Sequence record: KY608966
Direction: 5' to 3' (one strand)
DNA from: Escherichia phage CF2
Length of the DNA: 53,242 nucleotides
The position numbers and the translations under genes were made by a program. Within the stretch, counting starts at the first letter, position 1; each line of letters opens with the position of its first letter. Below, in pieces: positions 19,164 through 25,265 of the stretch. The notes under the pieces are model-generated. The model ran no database searches. It had not been told where the DNA came from and saw only the letters and a program-made list of their open reading frames with translations.

Positions 19164-19174
19164 GGAGCTGATTG

Positions 19175-21304
19175 ATGTCGCTTCCACTTAATGAGGTTGT
19201 CGACGTCCAGTTCAGTAAGAGCAACGGGGGTAAAGGTTTTACCCCCAATGTTCCGCTGGAAGGTATAATGCTTTCCAACTACGAGTACTCAATCGTCGCG
19301 GGTGATGACCCTGTTCAGCTAGTTGTGCGTTACATTCCAACCAACGCTACTGAGCGTGGTATGGCATGGAAATCTAGCGACCCGGACGTTATCACTGTTG
19401 ATGAGCTCGGATTTGTGAAGCCACTGGCGGAAGGTGTTGCATACGTGACTGGTACGTCTGTTGACGGCGGTTATACAGTACGGGCAAAGTTTAACATTGC
19501 TCGGGCACCTATCCTTGTTGAATCTGTTACAGTGTCTCCCACAAGTGTGACACTTGAAGAGGGCAAGACTCAACGCCTGACATACACCTATTTACCTGCT
19601 AACGCAGATAATCCTGATTTCTACTGGATTTCAGATGATGAGTCTGTTGCTGTCGTTAGCGACAACGGGCTTGTCACTGCCATTGGAGATGGCGAAACAA
19701 CTGTAAACGTACAGTACGGTGTTGACAGCTCTATATTCGATAGCTGTACAGTAACTGTTATTCCTCCTGTTGTGCACGTTACAGGAGTCGAGTTTCTTAC
19801 TCAGTCACCTCTTAACGTTAATATCGGAAGCACAGCTGGTACTAGTATTCGTATATCGCCAGAAGATGCCACTGACAAAACAGTGACATACGAAAGCAAT
19901 GCACCTACTATAGCAACTGTGGACACTGACGGAAATGTTACTGGTATTGTAGCTGGTAATGCCACTGTTACTGTTAAGACGAATGACGGTGATAAGACTG
20001 ACACTCTTGACATTATAGTCAGGGTGCCTGCTGTAAATGTTACCGGTGTAAGTATTGACGAAGGCGATACAGCTTCCATGGAAGTTGGTGACACTCTTCA
20101 GCTACATGCCACTGTGACTCCTGAAAATGCTACTGACCCATCTGTTGTATGGAGTGCTCCTGTATCAGAAGTTGCGTCTGTTACTGAAGCTGGTTTGGTA
20201 ACCGCTAACGCTGCAGGCTTAATTGATGTTACTGTTATCACTAATGACGGGAACTTTACAGATAGAATCGAGGTTAAAGTTACAGACCCTAGCATCGCAG
20301 TTACGGATGTTGCATGGGCTCCTGACTCTCCGACTAAAGTAAGCGCTGGCCATCAGGTGCAGACTAAAATTGTTATAACACCTGACAACGCAACCAATAA
20401 AAAAGTCAGTTACAATAGCTCAAATCCTGACGCTGTTACTGTTGACACTAACGGAGTTATATACGGTCAATCTCCTGGAACTTCGACTATTACAGTTACA
20501 ACAGACGACGGTGGACTTGAGGCTTCATTTGTAGCTACTTGCACGGAGGTGGCTGTTATTACACCAGATGGTCTTGGTGGTATCCCAATTGGTGGTACTC
20601 AGCAGCTCACTTATACTGTTAGTCCGTCTGACGCTGAGCTGACTAATATTCGTTATGAGTCTGCTGACCCAGCTATTGCAACTGTTGATTCGTCTGGCGT
20701 TGTAACTGGTGTTGCTAGCGGCGGATGTAACATCTGGATTTACGCAACTAGCAATGGCGCTGACATTAGTGCAGCCACTTGGGCACAAATCTCTGAGAAG
20801 GTACAGGTATATCCTCAGTACGCCGAATGGCTTGTGGGTAACACCAAACAGCTTGATGTTGAGATTTATCCGTCGGACTCTAAGAGCGTTACCGTTACTT
20901 ATGAATCGTCAAATGACGCTATCATTAGTATAGATGCAAATGGTTTGATGACTGCTAAGTCTGAAGGTTCAGCAACTATTACTGCTAACGTTGTGATGAA
21001 CGGTGTTGCTGCGTCTGGTACAACATCTCCTTACGTGTCTGAGCTTTCTGTTACTACTGATTCGCTGCCTGCACTTACTGTTGGCAACACGCAGCAGCTG
21101 GTTGTAACTGTTAGACCTGAATACGCTAAGACAGACCCAGGCTATAACATTCAGTATACAACTACAGACGATACTGTCGCTACTGTAAGTACTACCGGTG
21201 TTATTACTGGCGTTGGTAACGGTGGATGTCGTATTGGTGCCACAGTAACTGTGAGAAATGCTACAGCGTCGGACAGCTCTTATCAGTCCGTCGATGCAGC
21301 ATAA
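19175..21304 (+). CDS. Multi-BIG2-repeat virion surface protein (709 aa)
   Basis: At least 7 tandem Ig-like modules; ATG at 19175 with SD AAGGAG (track start 19172 is TTG). Confidence 0.75.
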   Translation: MSLPLNEVVDVQFSKSNGGKGFTPNVPLEGIMLSNYEYSIVAGDDPVQLVVRYIPTNATERGMAWKSSDPDVITVDELGFVKPLAEGVAYVTGTSVDGGYTVRAKFNIARAPILVESVTVSPTSVTLEEGKTQRLTYTYLPANADNPDFYWISDDESVAVVSDNGLVTAIGDGETTVNVQYGVDSSIFDSCTVTVIPPVVHVTGVEFLTQSPLNVNIGSTAGTSIRISPEDATDKTVTYESNAPTIATVDTDGNVTGIVAGNATVTVKTNDGDKTDTLDIIVRVPAVNVTGVSIDEGDTASMEVGDTLQLHATVTPENATDPSVVWSAPVSEVASVTEAGLVTANAAGLIDVTVITNDGNFTDRIEVKVTDPSIAVTDVAWAPDSPTKVSAGHQVQTKIVITPDNATNKKVSYNSSNPDAVTVDTNGVIYGQSPGTSTITVTTDDGGLEASFVATCTEVAVITPDGLGGIPIGGTQQLTYTVSPSDAELTNIRYESADPAIATVDSSGVVTGVASGGCNIWIYATSNGADISAATWAQISEKVQVYPQYAEWLVGNTKQLDVEIYPSDSKSVTVTYESSNDAIISIDANGLMTAKSEGSATITANVVMNGVAASGTTSPYVSELSVTTDSLPALTVGNTQQLVVTVRPEYAKTDPGYNIQYTTTDDTVATVSTTGVITGVGNGGCRIGATVTVRNATASDSSYQSVDAA

Positions 21305-21390: not shown

Positions 21391-22530
21391 ATGCCGTTGA
21401 ATGTAAACCAGATTGTAAACGTTCAACTGAACAACACTCCAACTGGTATCAGCAAAGGTGACTTCGGTAAGCTGGCTCTTTTAACTCAGGACCCTGGCAC
21501 TGCTTTTCCTGACAGCGACAACGGACACTATGTTGAAATCGGCAGCTACTCTGAAGCCGAGTCTTATTGGGGTACTGGTTCAGTTGTACTTGGCGCGCTG
21601 AAGATTTTCTTTGCACAATCTCCGCGTCCTCGTTCAGTAGTTATCGCCTCATGGAGCAACACCTCTACTCTGGATGCGGCTATTAAAGCATTCAACGATG
21701 TGTATCCTGACTGGTATGTTCTGCGTCCGCTTCCGCCTACTGGCGAGCTGTCTGACGATGACATCAGTTTGCTGGCGTCAACTGTTGCTGCTTACGATAA
21801 AAAACGTTGCAGCTACACTACCACTAAAGCAACTCATATTGAAAACAGCGACTCCAACCCGATTAAAGTTCTGGCTGGTAAAGGCTACAACAATATGTGG
21901 CTTCAGTACGATAAGAACAACCAACACTATGCAGACATTTCTGCTATGGCGCGTGCTCTGTCTGTTAACTTCTCTGGTAACCGCACTACGATTACCATGA
22001 AGTTCAAACAAGAGCCTGGTATTACACCGAACAACACTTTAACGCTCACTGAAGCTAACAAGTGTAAAGCGCTGGGTATTAACTGGTACACCTACTACAG
22101 CACCTTTGCTATGCTTGCAGAAGGTACTGTCCTCGGTACGTCCAAGCCGCCGCGCTTCTGGGATGAAGTACATGGTCTCGACTGGTTCTGTAACGCTGTC
22201 CAGACTTATGTCTTCAACTCAATCGCTACGTCACCCACGAAGGTGCCGCAGACGAACAAAGGTCACGAGCGCCTTACCGGTGCTGCAGCTGTTGCTTGTC
22301 AGCAGGCTGTCGACAACGGCTTGGTTGCACCTGGTATCTGGTACGGTGATGAGTTTGGTACACTGTCTTATGGTGACCGACTCGAAACAGGTTTCTACAT
22401 CTACATCCCTGACGTAGATGACCAGCCTCTGGATGAGCGTGAAGCTCGTCAGGCCGTTGTAATGCAAATCGCGATTAAGCTGGCTGGTGCAATCCACTCC
22501 AGCGACATCCTGATTAACTTCACTCGCTAA
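21391..22530 (+). CDS. Putative tail sheath protein
   Basis: 379 aa, first gene of tail block, followed by tube-sized and chaperone-sized ORFs and tape measure. Confidence 0.55.
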   Translation: MPLNVNQIVNVQLNNTPTGISKGDFGKLALLTQDPGTAFPDSDNGHYVEIGSYSEAESYWGTGSVVLGALKIFFAQSPRPRSVVIASWSNTSTLDAAIKAFNDVYPDWYVLRPLPPTGELSDDDISLLASTVAAYDKKRCSYTTTKATHIENSDSNPIKVLAGKGYNNMWLQYDKNNQHYADISAMARALSVNFSGNRTTITMKFKQEPGITPNNTLTLTEANKCKALGINWYTYYSTFAMLAEGTVLGTSKPPRFWDEVHGLDWFCNAVQTYVFNSIATSPTKVPQTNKGHERLTGAAAVACQQAVDNGLVAPGIWYGDEFGTLSYGDRLETGFYIYIPDVDDQPLDEREARQAVVMQIAIKLAGAIHSSDILINFTR

Positions 22531-22541
22531 GGAGCAGATCA

Positions 22542-22973
22542 ATGATCATCGATTCTTCTGAATGCGTGTTGAGCCTGAATGGTGTTCAGCTGTCCGACTG
22601 GGCAGACGGTGCCGATGTCATTGACGTGCAATGGGTGGACCCGGCTTCCACCTATCTTGCAGGTGCAGATGGCAATGGCATTCAGATTATGAACCCGTCC
22701 AAAGCCATTAAGCTAACTATCAAGGTTAAGCAAAATGGTCCGGATGCCAAATGGCTTAACGACCAGTACAACCTGCAGCGTAACAACATTCGTGGATTCG
22801 TCCCGTTTGTGCTGCAAGCCAAAGACCTGCTAAACCAGGATTTGGCATGGGGTAAAAAAGGTTACTTTACCGATGGTTCCCCGTGGACTCGCGGTAACGG
22901 CCATAACCCGACTACCTTCGCTATTGTGTTCCACCAAGGTGGTATGCAGTTGACTGAAGGCTTTGACCAGTAA
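22542..22973 (+). CDS. Putative tail tube protein
   Basis: 143 aa between sheath and chaperone. Confidence 0.5.
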   Translation: MIIDSSECVLSLNGVQLSDWADGADVIDVQWVDPASTYLAGADGNGIQIMNPSKAIKLTIKVKQNGPDAKWLNDQYNLQRNNIRGFVPFVLQAKDLLNQDLAWGKKGYFTDGSPWTRGNGHNPTTFAIVFHQGGMQLTEGFDQ

Positions 22974-22991: not shown

Positions 22992-23420
22992 ATGACTGAG
23001 CCCAAATCATTTGACATCGACGACGTAACGTACAACATGACACTCGCAAACGCGCTACAAGCCTGGACAGTTCTGAAAAAAGCAGGTAAGCTGTTCAAAG
23101 GCATTGGCAACGCGGACATTGTGGGTAAAGACGGCAAAGTGGACGGTAAGAAAGCAATGCTGGTCCTGTTGGACGCTGTTCTGGAGAACGCAGGTTCTGA
23201 CGAGATGACAGCTATTGAGGAACTAATCTTCCGCAATACTGTTGTTGTAGTTGATGGCAAACCGCGTAAGCTGTCTGACTGTAAAGACCAACACTTCAAC
23301 GCACATCGTAGCCATATCTTCGGTGTGCTCAAGGAGGGATTGGTGTATCAGTTCGCGGATTTTTTCAAAGGGAATGGCCTGTCAGGTCTAGCGGGTCTAG
23401 CCACGCCCTTGACGAAATAA
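22992..23420 (+). CDS. Tail assembly chaperone (short form)
   Basis: 142 aa immediately upstream of tape measure. Confidence 0.5.
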   Translation: MTEPKSFDIDDVTYNMTLANALQAWTVLKKAGKLFKGIGNADIVGKDGKVDGKKAMLVLLDAVLENAGSDEMTAIEELIFRNTVVVVDGKPRKLSDCKDQHFNAHRSHIFGVLKEGLVYQFADFFKGNGLSGLAGLATPLTK

Positions 23421-23602
23421 AACGCAAGCAACAGTCAGGGACGCAAGAAACTGACTGGTTCGTTTGGCTTCCTATTCTCAAGGGTCATGTGACCCTTGCA
23501 GAATTAAAGTCGTCATACAGCTTGTGTGATTTGTGCGACCTGCATATTGCTATTCTGGACTATGCCGAGTTAGAGGAAATCCATGGCGACCATAATCGAT
23601 AG
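22992..23602 (+). CDS. Tail assembly chaperone, predicted -1 frameshift long form
   Basis: Heptamer T_TTT_TTC at 23360-23366; -1 frame open 79 codons to TAG at 23600-23602. Confidence 0.4.
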
Positions 23603-25265
23603 CTTTCTGGTAACGCTTGAGAGTAAAGCTGATAGTTCTGGCTTTGACCTCTTCGACCAGCTGTCCCGCCGTTTTGTGATTACCCTCGGCGATGTGATCA
23701 ATCTTGCTGAGCGTGCCGCTGGTGCGCTTGGTAAGATGTTTGCGCCTGCGTTAGAGGCTGACGTACTCGCCGCCAAGATTAAAGGCTTCGGCTACGACGT
23801 TGAGTCGACGTGGAAAACGCTGATGGATATGTCTCTGCAAATGGGTACACCATTCCAGGAGGCACTAGACGGCTTTACTAAACTTAAATCGTATGGCGTT
23901 GACCCGTTAAACGGTTCGCTACAAATGCTCAAAACAATCACTGCTGCAACAGGCGGTGATTTGGCACGTACCATTGTTGCGTATGGCCAGGCGTCTGCGA
24001 TGGGTTCATTGCAGGGCCAGGAAAAGAACCAGTTCATTAACGCCGGTGTTGACATCTGGGGCGCATTGTCCCGCTACACTGGTAAGAAGCTTGGCGAGCT
24101 TCAGGATATGATGCGGCAGAAGCAAATCACTGCCGACATACTGACTAGCGCGCTCAAACAAGAAGCCGAGCGTTTAAAACCAATTGCCCACGAAGTGTCT
24201 CAGACACTCAAAGCGCAGTTAACTAACCTGAGCACAATTTGGTATGCTGCTCGTTCTAAGATTGCCCAGACCAGAGTATGGGATGAGGTAACTAAAGGTG
24301 CGATAGGTATGGTTAAGTCACTCACAGCAGTGCTTAACGATACCACACTTACTGCGGCATTTAAAAAGTTCGACGAAGTTGTATTCAATACAATTGAAAA
24401 CGTAAAACGACTTATCTACGTTATCGGGGATAACTTCCCGTTAATGGTTGCGATAACCTCATACGCACTGCTGTCACTTATTCCCGTGCTGGCGGCGCTT
24501 ATTCCCTGGCTAGCTAAGGTCGGCAACGCCTTTGTGGGTTTAGCTACCAAAATGCTTATGAATCCGCTCACGTGGTTCGCACTGGCTATCGGCACAGTTG
24601 TTGCTGTACTCACTGACCTCGATGACGCTCTGGCAGGACGTGAGACAGTTGTTAAGTGGTCAAAAGATGTTGTAGCCGCATGGGGAATTGTCAAGCAGTA
24701 TATCGTAGTTATTGCAGACTTTATTCTGTCAATATTTGACGGTCGCTTATGGAACAAACTCGGTAACTGGTGGCAAGGTTTCCTTGTTGAAGTTAAGCAA
24801 GGCATAGAGCAGATAAAGCTTTGGTTGTCTGAAGCACTTTACCAGCTGCCTGGTGGTAAGTTCCTGATGGCGTTGTTTGGTAAGCTCGATTCTACACTGG
24901 GCTTTGCTGGCAACAAACTTGTGGCAGGCGCTGAAGCTACTGCTAATGCTGTATCACCTACAACTGAACGGGGCGGAAGCTTCTGGCGTAGGGCACTCAA
25001 CTGGTCTATGCGTAACTTCAACCCTATTACAGGGGAGATGACAGCTGGAGGCCAGGCTATGCAGTCAGCTATAAATACAGCTAAGCAAAACCAACAACAG
25101 AACGCAACTGTTATCCATCAGGACAATAGCGTTAAAGTTGATGCTACTATTACCGGTGTACAAAACCCACAAGAAGTAGGTCGTGAGGTCAACGACCAGG
25201 TCAAACAGGCGCAGAAAGAGAATGCTACTGTAAGGGCTAACAACAAAACGGCGGTAACACAATGA
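23583..25265 (+). CDS. Tail tape measure protein
   Basis: 560 aa; hydrophobic central segments; Q-rich C-terminus; position after chaperone. Confidence 0.8.
   Translation: MATIIDSFLVTLESKADSSGFDLFDQLSRRFVITLGDVINLAERAAGALGKMFAPALEADVLAAKIKGFGYDVESTWKTLMDMSLQMGTPFQEALDGFTKLKSYGVDPLNGSLQMLKTITAATGGDLARTIVAYGQASAMGSLQGQEKNQFINAGVDIWGALSRYTGKKLGELQDMMRQKQITADILTSALKQEAERLKPIAHEVSQTLKAQLTNLSTIWYAARSKIAQTRVWDEVTKGAIGMVKSLTAVLNDTTLTAAFKKFDEVVFNTIENVKRLIYVIGDNFPLMVAITSYALLSLIPVLAALIPWLAKVGNAFVGLATKMLMNPLTWFALAIGTVVAVLTDLDDALAGRETVVKWSKDVVAAWGIVKQYIVVIADFILSIFDGRLWNKLGNWWQGFLVEVKQGIEQIKLWLSEALYQLPGGKFLMALFGKLDSTLGFAGNKLVAGAEATANAVSPTTERGGSFWRRALNWSMRNFNPITGEMTAGGQAMQSAINTAKQNQQQNATVIHQDNSVKVDATITGVQNPQEVGREVNDQVKQAQKENATVRANNKTAVTQ

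What the first reader, a model, noticed from the sequence alone, without database searches (positions are those of the whole stretch)
23360..23602. Predicted programmed -1 ribosomal frameshift in the tail assembly chaperone
The heptamer T_TTT_TTC (23360-23366) lies near the 3' end of the chaperone gene, and the -1 frame stays open for 79 codons through the 160-nt gap to the tape-measure start, ending at TAG 23600-23602. This matches the conserved two-isoform chaperone arrangement known from lambda G/GT and widespread in tailed phages. The extension is missed by ORF calling because it has no start codon.
Basis: partly seen in the sequence, partly recalled or inferred. Interest (0 to 1): 0.45.

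Follow-up and report, generated by a model that had tools for sequence, protein, structure and literature searches.

The report
Tail chaperone -1 frameshift (G/GT type)
The phage's tail assembly chaperone gene carries a conserved slippery T_TTT_TTC site that should let a few ribosomes slip back one base and make a longer second protein; this is the well-known lambda G/GT trick, real here but left out of the public annotations of this phage group.

Summary
T_TTT_TTC (23360-23366) sits in the correct X_XXY_YYZ phase of the chaperone gene (22992-23420, Pfam Phage_TAC_9). The -1 frame then runs 78 sense codons to TAG 23600-23602, overlapping the tape-measure ATG (23583).

It is not chance. I found 87 related loci (59 distinct sequences, down to 35% chaperone identity). 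All keep an in-phase T_TTT_TT[C/T] at the same FADFF motif, followed by a 55-91 codon -1 ORF with a conserved motif (DWF..P....TL.EL..Y.L.DL..H).

In the "gap", substitutions fall at codon positions 1/2/3 as 151/67/361. In 48 of 59 sequences no start codon precedes the conserved motif. In 24 of 59 a -1-frame stop lies directly 5' of the heptamer.

The predicted 203-aa fusion aligns across the junction with the joined CDS ORF54-54' annotated in RefSeq for phage Aaphi23 (39% identity, E 2e-46). None of the Rosemountvirus or Loughboroughvirus records I inspected annotates the fusion; some call a 37-aa fragment.

Verdict: an ordinary, unannotated member of the conserved tail-chaperone frameshift. 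No expression data exist. Transcriptional slippage on the T-run would give the same protein and is not excluded. No significant RNA stimulator was found.

The parts
22992..23420 (+). Tail assembly chaperone gene ('G'), 142 aa, zero frame
   Evidence: Pfam Phage_TAC_9 E 4.5e-33 and Phage_TAC_15 E 1.2e-16. It lies between the tube gene (22542-22973) and the tape-measure gene.
23360..23366 (+). Slippery heptamer T_TTT_TTC in X_XXY_YYZ phase (codons GAT TTT TTC = D-F-F)
   Evidence: It is conserved in phase in 59 of 59 distinct related sequences; the preceding codon is always NNT and the first Phe is always TTT. U_UU.U_UU.C is shift-prone in E. coli (PMC4066793).
23366..23602 (+). -1 frame extension ('T' domain): 78 codons plus TAG. 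The frame is open from 23312.
   Evidence: The protein motif is conserved across relatives. Substitutions fall at codon positions 1/2/3 as 151/67/361 in the part 3' of the G stop. The other two frames are full of stops in relatives.
22992..23602 (+). Predicted frameshift product GT, join(22992..23366,23366..23602), 203 aa
   Evidence: It aligns end to end with Aaphi23 ORF54-54' (39% identity over 196 aa, E 2e-46) with no gap at the junction.
23368..23410 (+). Weak imperfect stem-loop starting 1-3 nt 3' of the heptamer (GGG..UGGC / GCCA..CCC). A stimulator role is unproven.
   Evidence: MFE -15.4 kcal/mol, z -0.43. The stem is conserved in 8 relatives but shows no compensatory changes.
23489..23602 (+). 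37-aa GTG-started fragment of the T frame, annotated as a hypothetical protein in some relatives. It is probably not a separate gene.
   Evidence: The start is not conserved (GTA in L008), and the conserved DWF motif lies 5' of it.
23583..25265 (+). Tape measure protein gene. Its ATG lies 20 nt inside the end of the T ORF, and a GAGG sequence sits at 23573-23576.
   Evidence: Pfam TMP_3 E 3.3e-20 and phrog_29251. Sequence.
22542..22973 (+). Tail tube gene (context; the presumed partner of the T domain)
   Evidence: phrog_280 and weak Pfam KPP10_Orf10. It is annotated as a putative tube protein in S144.
21391..22530 (+). Tail sheath gene (context)
   Evidence: DUF3383/E217_gp31 E 4.5e-72; phrog_205 tail sheath.

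Best explanation
This is a programmed -1 ribosomal frameshift of the lambda G/GT (P2 E/E+E') type. Most ribosomes translate the chaperone gene to its stop at 23420 and make the 142-aa G protein. A small fraction slip back one base, with tRNA-Phe on UUU and UUC re-pairing to UUU and UUU at U_UUU_UUC (23360-23366). Those ribosomes continue in the -1 frame to TAG 23602 and make a 203-aa GT protein: 125 G residues plus a 78-residue T domain. By analogy with lambda, the G part coats the tape-measure protein, and the T domain recruits the tube protein so that the tube polymerises around the tape measure. Neither protein is expected to be a stoichiometric virion component. Shown here: the signal, its phase, and the conservation, coding selection and start-less nature of the T ORF. 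Inferred: that slippage actually occurs, its efficiency (probably a few percent or less), and the binding partners.
For: The heptamer phase and the -1 ORF are verified. The gene is a tail assembly chaperone by Pfam and sits between the tube and tape-measure genes. The in-phase T_TTT_TT[C/T] plus a 55-91 codon -1 ORF occur in 87 loci (59 distinct sequences), spanning Rosemountvirus, Loughboroughvirus, fHy-Eco03-like phages, metagenomic contigs and Aaphi23-like Pasteurellaceae prophages. Proteus phage ZX7 uses T_TTT_TTG, and a more distant TAC_15 relative uses A_AAA_AAG with a homologous T domain. Synonymous sites that build the T-run are fixed: NNT and TTT in 59 of 59 sequences, against background frequencies of GAT 55%, GGT 31% and TTT 52%. 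There is a coding signature in the 'intergenic' part of T, with position 1/2/3 differences of 151/67/361 and 266 synonymous against 180 nonsynonymous codon changes. In 48 of 59 sequences no canonical start precedes the conserved DWF motif, and in 24 of 59 a -1-frame stop lies immediately 5' of the heptamer. RefSeq annotates the joined CDS ORF54-54' in Aaphi23, and the window's fusion aligns with it across the junction at E 2e-46. No promoter, terminator or Rfam family lies in the gap. U_UU.U_UU.C/U give more than 0.1% frameshifting without stimulators in E. coli, and H_HH.U_UU.Y motifs are among the efficient ones (PMC4066793). The lambda mechanism and the 30:1 ratio are from PMC5009743.
Against: There are no expression data. 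The fusion protein is absent from the protein databases searched, and no paper in the searchable corpus links these genera to a frameshift. No statistically supported downstream RNA stimulator was found (z -0.91 and -0.43, no covariation), and the candidate stem starts only about 3 nt after the heptamer. There is no significant sequence similarity to lambda G or T (BLASTP E 0.54 or worse; hhalign probability 0.7%). A run of 6-7 T would also allow RNA-polymerase slippage, which would give an identical protein.
Confidence: 0.82

Rival explanations
1. The same GT fusion is made mainly by transcriptional slippage. RNA polymerase adds one extra U in the U6 run, so a subset of mRNAs carries G and T in one frame and is then translated normally.
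For: The conserved element is a homopolymer: T6 here, T7 in 28 of 59 distinct relatives. UUUUUUU is noted as prone to transcriptional slippage (PMC4066793). A degraded prophage remnant with T8 carries G and T fused in frame, showing that one extra T gives the same product (L096). The protein would be identical, so the comparative data cannot discriminate.
Against: The run is always in the exact X_XXY_YYZ phase, which slippage by the polymerase does not require. Relatives use T_TTT_TTG and the classic ribosomal heptamer A_AAA_AAG. From general knowledge, six-base runs are short for efficient slippage by bacterial RNA polymerase. In lambda and P2 the event is ribosomal (PMC5009743).
Confidence: 0.08
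2. The -1 ORF is a separate small gene, started at GTG 23489 (37 aa) as annotated in BP63 and KE24, with no recoding.
For: GenBank records annotate it. An AAGGG sequence lies a few bases upstream of the GTG.
Against: The conserved DWF.W.PI motif lies 5' of this GTG and is under purifying selection. The start is absent in relatives, and in many the first in-frame start is codon 65 of 73. The phase-locked heptamer would be left unexplained.
Confidence: 0.03
3. The heptamer and the open frame are a coincidence, and the gap is non-coding spacer.
For: About 1.3% of shuffles of the segment stay open.
Against: Conservation holds across relatives down to 35% chaperone identity, the third-position substitution bias is strong, and there is homology to an annotated frameshift product.
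Confidence: 0.01

Closest known systems
Aaphi23 ORF54 / ORF54-54' (RefSeq NC_004827, Aaphi23p41 and the joined CDS Aaphi23p40a, YP_003960.1)
   Same: It is a homologous protein family: G is 44% identical, and the whole fusion is 39% identical over 196 aa (E 2e-46). The slip is at the same ADFF motif, the gene order is the same (sheath, tube, chaperone, tape measure), and the T motif is the same.
   Different: Aaphi23 has T_TTT_TTT (a run of 7) and a 73-aa T domain, and is a temperate phage of Pasteurellaceae. The window has T_TTT_TTC and belongs to a Rosemountvirus-like phage group isolated on Salmonella and E. coli. I know of no experimental proof for either.
Phage lambda G / GT (-1 frameshift at G_GGA_AAG)
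   Same: The architecture matches. A chaperone of about 140 aa lies directly 5' of the tape-measure gene. An in-phase heptamer sits near its 3' end. The -1 ORF has no start of its own, and its end overlaps the tape-measure start. The mechanism and the roles of G and T are as reviewed in PMC5009743.
   Different: There is no significant sequence similarity. The heptamer differs. Lambda's slip site is 24 nt from the end of G and its T is 144 codons; here the site is 60 nt from the end and T is 78 codons. Lambda is a siphovirus, whereas this phage has a contractile tail.
Phage P2 E / E+E' (contractile-tail counterpart)
   Same: It is the same two-isoform chaperone arrangement, lying between the tail tube and tape-measure genes of a contractile-tailed phage. 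This comes from established knowledge and from PMC5009743.
   Different: I did not compare the sequences here. My P2 fetch covered the region 3' of E. PMC5009743 reports an efficiency 2- to 3-fold higher in P2 than in lambda.

Membership tests
Conserved tail-assembly-chaperone -1 frameshift (lambda G/GT type; Xu, Hendrix & Duda 2004) | Two overlapping ORFs lie between the major tail/tube gene and the tape-measure gene | tested here: met
   Tube 22542-22973, G 22992-23420, T frame 23312-23602, tape measure 23583-25265.
Conserved tail-assembly-chaperone -1 frameshift (lambda G/GT type; Xu, Hendrix & Duda 2004) | [quoted passage not shown] | tested here: met
   T_TTT_TTC at 23360-23366, 18 codons before the G stop. 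The motif is shift-prone in E. coli.
Conserved tail-assembly-chaperone -1 frameshift (lambda G/GT type; Xu, Hendrix & Duda 2004) | The second ORF lacks its own translation start and is conserved as protein | tested here: met
   No ATG/GTG/TTG lies 5' of the conserved motif in the window or in 48 of 59 relatives. A stop directly 5' of the heptamer occurs in 24 of 59. Position 1/2/3 differences are 151/67/361.
Conserved tail-assembly-chaperone -1 frameshift (lambda G/GT type; Xu, Hendrix & Duda 2004) | The arrangement is conserved in relatives despite sequence divergence | tested here: met
   87 loci, 59 distinct sequences, with chaperone identity down to 35%. Other heptamers are used in ZX7 and L097.
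Conserved tail-assembly-chaperone -1 frameshift (lambda G/GT type; Xu, Hendrix & Duda 2004) | Two proteins, G and GT, are made at a fixed low ratio, and both are needed for tail assembly | not testable with these tools
   This needs proteomics, reporter assays and genetics. The fHy-Eco03 virion MS detected the G homologue, but no peptide sequences are held.
Pfam Phage_TAC_9 (PF10876) / Phage_TAC_15 (PF21822) tail assembly chaperones | The sequence matches the family HMM above the gathering threshold | tested here: met
   114.7 bits against a cutoff of 25, and 61.8 bits against a cutoff of 22.
Lambda gpG / gpT sequence families | Detectable sequence homology to lambda G or T | tested here: not met
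   Best BLASTP E value 0.54. hhalign of the T-domain alignment against lambda T gives probability 0.7%, with only a 14-residue motif aligned. No Pfam hit for T.
Stimulated -1 PRF signals (dnaX/IS type: heptamer plus 3' hairpin or pseudoknot and/or 5' SD-like element) | A significant, conserved 3' RNA structure 5-9 nt after the heptamer, or an SD-like element 6-17 nt before it | tested here: inconclusive
   The stem starts about 3 nt after the heptamer, has z -0.43, and is conserved but shows no covariation in a dual-coding stretch. AAGGAGGG lies 21 nt upstream and is not conserved.

The most novel reading that the evidence does not exclude
The recoding might not be classical ribosomal slippage. 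The phase-locked U-run, together with a stem placed unusually close to it (about 3 nt; a strong perfect hairpin occupies the same place in the L057 clade), could act at the level of RNA polymerase. Alternatively it could be an atypically spaced stimulator. Either way, this chaperone family would then make GT by a route different from lambda.
Probability: 0.08. Interest if true: 0.4.

Novelty: new member of a known kind. Interest (0 to 1): 0.2.

Why it matters
The main value is better annotation. None of the records I inspected from the roughly 60 related Rosemountvirus, Loughboroughvirus and allied genomes annotates the 203-aa GT product, and some list a spurious 37-aa 'hypothetical protein' instead. 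Several of these phages are described as candidates for phage therapy or biocontrol, so a complete and correct list of structural and assembly genes is useful. The comparative set also defines a compact T-domain motif and shows that T_TTT_TTN is the preferred slip site across a whole Phage_TAC_9 lineage. It does not change what is known about the mechanism.

Tried and rejected
1. AlphaFold2 of the fusion without an alignment gave mean pLDDT 39. The model is unusable, so I ran no fold search.
2. Sequence search of the PDB found nothing relevant, and NCBIfam found nothing.
3. Pfam and PHROGs gave only faint hits for the T domain.
4. The T domain searched against 5.8 billion and 1.84 billion protein sets returned only short mis-called fragments (37-45 aa), a few longer called ORFs or remnants that carry the T domain (P0015, 121 aa; P0017, 84 aa), and spurious repeat proteins.
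5. The fusion query returned only G-length proteins covering 62-66% of the query.
6. Rfam gave no family, and there is no promoter or terminator in the gap.
7. Literature searches linking Rosemountvirus or Loughboroughvirus with 'frameshift' or with 'tail assembly chaperone' found no paper that discusses a frameshift.
8. The fHy-Eco03 proteomics supplement lists Gp34 but no peptide sequences, so GT could not be checked.
9. A first version of the survey script had a phase bug. I discarded it and reran it correctly.
10. Remote homology of T to lambda gpT was tested and is not significant.
11. My P2 fetch missed the E/E' genes, and I did not repeat it.

Full report
**What is in the sequence**

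The window is a nearly complete genome of a Rosemountvirus-like contractile-tailed phage. It is 99% identical over this region to Salmonella phages vB_SalM_Sz, KE24, LSE7621 and BP63.

The tail module reads as follows:
- Sheath, 21391-22530 (DUF3383/E217_gp31).
- Tube, 22542-22973.
- A 142-aa ORF, 22992-23420, matching Pfam Phage_TAC_9 (E 4.5e-33) and Phage_TAC_15.
- A 162-nt gap.
- The tape-measure gene, 23583-25265.

In the chaperone frame the sequence is GAT TTT TTC AAA. TTTTTTC at 23360-23366 is therefore in the X_XXY_YYZ phase needed for tandem -1 slippage. The -1 frame is open from 23312 to 23602. After a slip it encodes 78 residues and stops at TAG 23600-23602, 20 nt inside the tape-measure gene. 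The predicted fusion is 203 aa.

The one inaccuracy concerns the start codon. A GTG at 23489 lets gene callers annotate a 37-aa fragment, as in BP63_35 and KE24 CDS0018.

**Is it more than chance?**

Within the window, open runs in the -1 frame of long ORFs have a median of 6 codons and a 99th percentile of 43. Only 0.6% of positions reach 78 codons, and 1.3% of shuffles of the segment stay open. Among 22 in-phase heptamers in ORFs of at least 100 aa, only this one, in a real gene, is followed by a -1 ORF running far past the gene's own stop.

The decisive evidence is comparative. I collected relatives from three sources:
- GenBank phages.
- Contigs encoding homologous chaperones.
- 80 viral contigs.

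In 87 loci, representing 59 distinct T sequences and reaching down to 35% chaperone identity, an in-phase T_TTT_TT[C/T] sits at the same conserved (F)ADFF motif. It is followed by a -1 ORF of 55-91 codons that ends at or just inside the tape-measure start. The single exception, L023, has a 1-nt deletion in a nearby G-run.

The T ORFs share a clear motif, DWF.[WF].P[IV]....[CV]TL.EL[KR]..Y.L.DL..[FL]H. Proteus phage ZX7 keeps the T6 run as T_TTT_TTG, even though the zero-frame residue changes from Phe to Leu. A more distant TAC_15-type relative has a homologous T domain behind the classic heptamer A_AAA_AAG.

**Evidence that T is translated, and not from its own start**

- In the part of the T frame 3' of the G stop, the apparent intergenic gap, 21 pairwise comparisons give 151/67/361 differences at codon positions 1/2/3. 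Codon changes are 266 synonymous against 180 nonsynonymous.
- The other two frames of the gap are full of stops in relatives.
- In 48 of 59 distinct sequences no ATG/GTG/TTG occurs anywhere in the open -1 frame 5' of the conserved DWF motif. In 24 of 59 a -1-frame stop (TGA, from NNT GAT) lies immediately 5' of the heptamer. In many, the first in-frame start is codon 65 of 73.
- The synonymous positions that build the T-run are fixed. The preceding codon is GAT (54) or GGT (5), and the first Phe is always TTT. Background usage in the same genes is GAT 55%, GGT 31% and TTT 52%.
- The gap has no promoter-like or terminator-like site and no Rfam match.

**Link to a known case**

RefSeq NC_004827 (phage Aaphi23) annotates a two-piece joined CDS, 'ORF54-54'' (YP_003960.1), alongside ORF54. 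Its length fits a -1 join at the T_TTT_TTT I located. The window's predicted fusion aligns with that product from end to end and straight across the junction: 39% identity over 196 aa, E 2e-46. The window therefore carries a homologue of a frameshift product that is already annotated.

In contrast, none of the Rosemountvirus, Loughboroughvirus or fHy-Eco03-like records I inspected annotates it. The fused protein and the T domain are absent from the large protein sets apart from mis-called fragments. I found no paper discussing it for these genera.

**Mechanism**

The best-supported reading is a lambda G/GT-type programmed -1 ribosomal frameshift.

As reviewed in PMC5009743, lambda makes G and GT at about 30:1. 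G, and the G part of GT, bind the tape-measure protein. The T domain binds the major tail protein and starts its polymerisation. Neither protein is in the virion. The arrangement is conserved among long-tailed phages, with a 2- to 3-fold higher efficiency in P2.

U_UU.U_UU.C and U_UU.U_UU.U are among the heptamers giving more than 0.1% frameshifting in E. coli without stimulators. H_HH.U_UU.Y motifs are among the efficient ones, and U_UU.U_UU.C is used by IS elements (PMC4066793). A modest heptamer fits the need for a low GT:G ratio.

I found no convincing stimulator:
- Folding 101 nt or 60 nt downstream gives z-scores of -0.91 and -0.43.
- An imperfect stem (23368-23410) is conserved in eight relatives but shows no compensatory changes. 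It lies in a dual-coding stretch and begins only about 3 nt after the heptamer.
- One clade (L057) has a strong perfect hairpin at the same position (z -3.2), so a structural contribution cannot be dismissed.
- An AAGGAGGG sequence 21 nt upstream is too far away and is not conserved.

**Rivals**

- Transcriptional slippage on the U-run would yield an identical protein, and sequence alone cannot exclude it. A decayed prophage remnant with T8 carries G and T fused in frame. Against this reading stand the strict phase of the run, the use of T_TTT_TTG and A_AAA_AAG in relatives, and the ribosomal precedent.
- An independent 37-aa gene starting at GTG 23489 is contradicted by conserved coding sequence 5' of it and by loss of that start in relatives.
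- Pure coincidence is excluded by the conservation.

**Comparison with lambda**

The architecture is the same. In lambda, G is 140 aa, G_GGA_AAG lies 24 nt from the end of G, T is 144 codons, and T overlaps the start of H. There is no significant sequence similarity, with BLASTP E values of 0.54 or worse. A profile of 19 T domains aligns only a 14-residue motif to lambda T, at probability 0.7%. The element works like lambda G/GT, and by homology it belongs to the Phage_TAC_9 / Aaphi23 ORF54-54' lineage, not to the lambda G or T sequence families.

**Limits**

No expression data exist. The AlphaFold model without an alignment was unusable (pLDDT 39). The efficiency, any stimulator and the binding partners are all inferred.

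**Verdict**

This is an ordinary, unannotated member of a well-known recoding class. It is useful for correcting annotation and is of low surprise value.

Noticed in passing
window 23331-23338: A perfect SD-like AAGGAGGG lies inside the chaperone gene, 21 nt 5' of the heptamer. That is too far for the known 6-17 nt stimulatory window, and it is not conserved in L008 or L011.
   Followed up: partly
L057:1098-1133 (also the L058, L060-L064, L071, L076 and L082 clade): A strong perfect 13-bp hairpin (-23.7 kcal/mol, z -3.2) starts 3 nt after T_TTT_TTC, at the same position as the window's weak stem.
   Followed up: partly
L096:2001-2366 (protein P0015): A truncated chaperone gene lies in a degraded prophage remnant beside a transposase. 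It has a T8 run (GAT TTT TTT TCT) and carries the G C-terminus and the T domain in one frame. This is either a natural one-base insertion that mimics the frameshift product or an assembly error.
   Followed up: partly
L023:1854-1881: This is the only relative where the arrangement is broken. A 1-nt deletion in the G-run just 3' of the heptamer (GGTGGGGCGG instead of GGTGGGGGCGG) truncates G and moves T into another frame. It is either a sequencing error or a pseudogene.
   Followed up: partly
L097:1645-2255: A more distant TAC_15-family chaperone uses A_AAA_AAG at 2028, followed by a 73-codon -1 ORF with a homologous T domain. An extra 193-aa gene sits between the tube and chaperone genes.
   Followed up: partly
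L006:1436-1894 (fHy-Eco03 gp34): The chaperone homologue is annotated as virion-associated from LC-MS/MS of purified particles (3 unique peptides, 24% coverage). However, 48 of 81 proteins were scored that way. Lambda G and GT are not virion components.
   Followed up: partly
PP583539.1 (hit H13): A record named 'Listeria phage 220426122051', with host Listeria monocytogenes, is 98.9% identical to Salmonella and E. coli Rosemountviruses over this region. The host label looks doubtful.
   Followed up: no
window 19172-21304: A 710-aa ORF with a TTG start lies just 5' of the sheath gene. The homologue in L008 carries repeated Big_2 Ig-like domains, and the gene is labelled 'major tail protein' in KE24.
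   Followed up: no
L098:816-1250 (lambda T) versus alignment A3: Lambda T contains THYFHDVLLDMHFS, which hhalign pairs with the conserved tvYtL.DL.DfH.a motif of this T family. The match is not significant (probability 0.7%) and may be only a hint of remote T-domain homology.
   Followed up: partly
window 23489-23602; L001:2448-2561; L007:1936-2073; L095:1300-1428: Several GenBank records annotate short 'hypothetical proteins' of 37-45 aa that are 3' fragments of the T frame. Their start positions differ between genera.
   Followed up: yes
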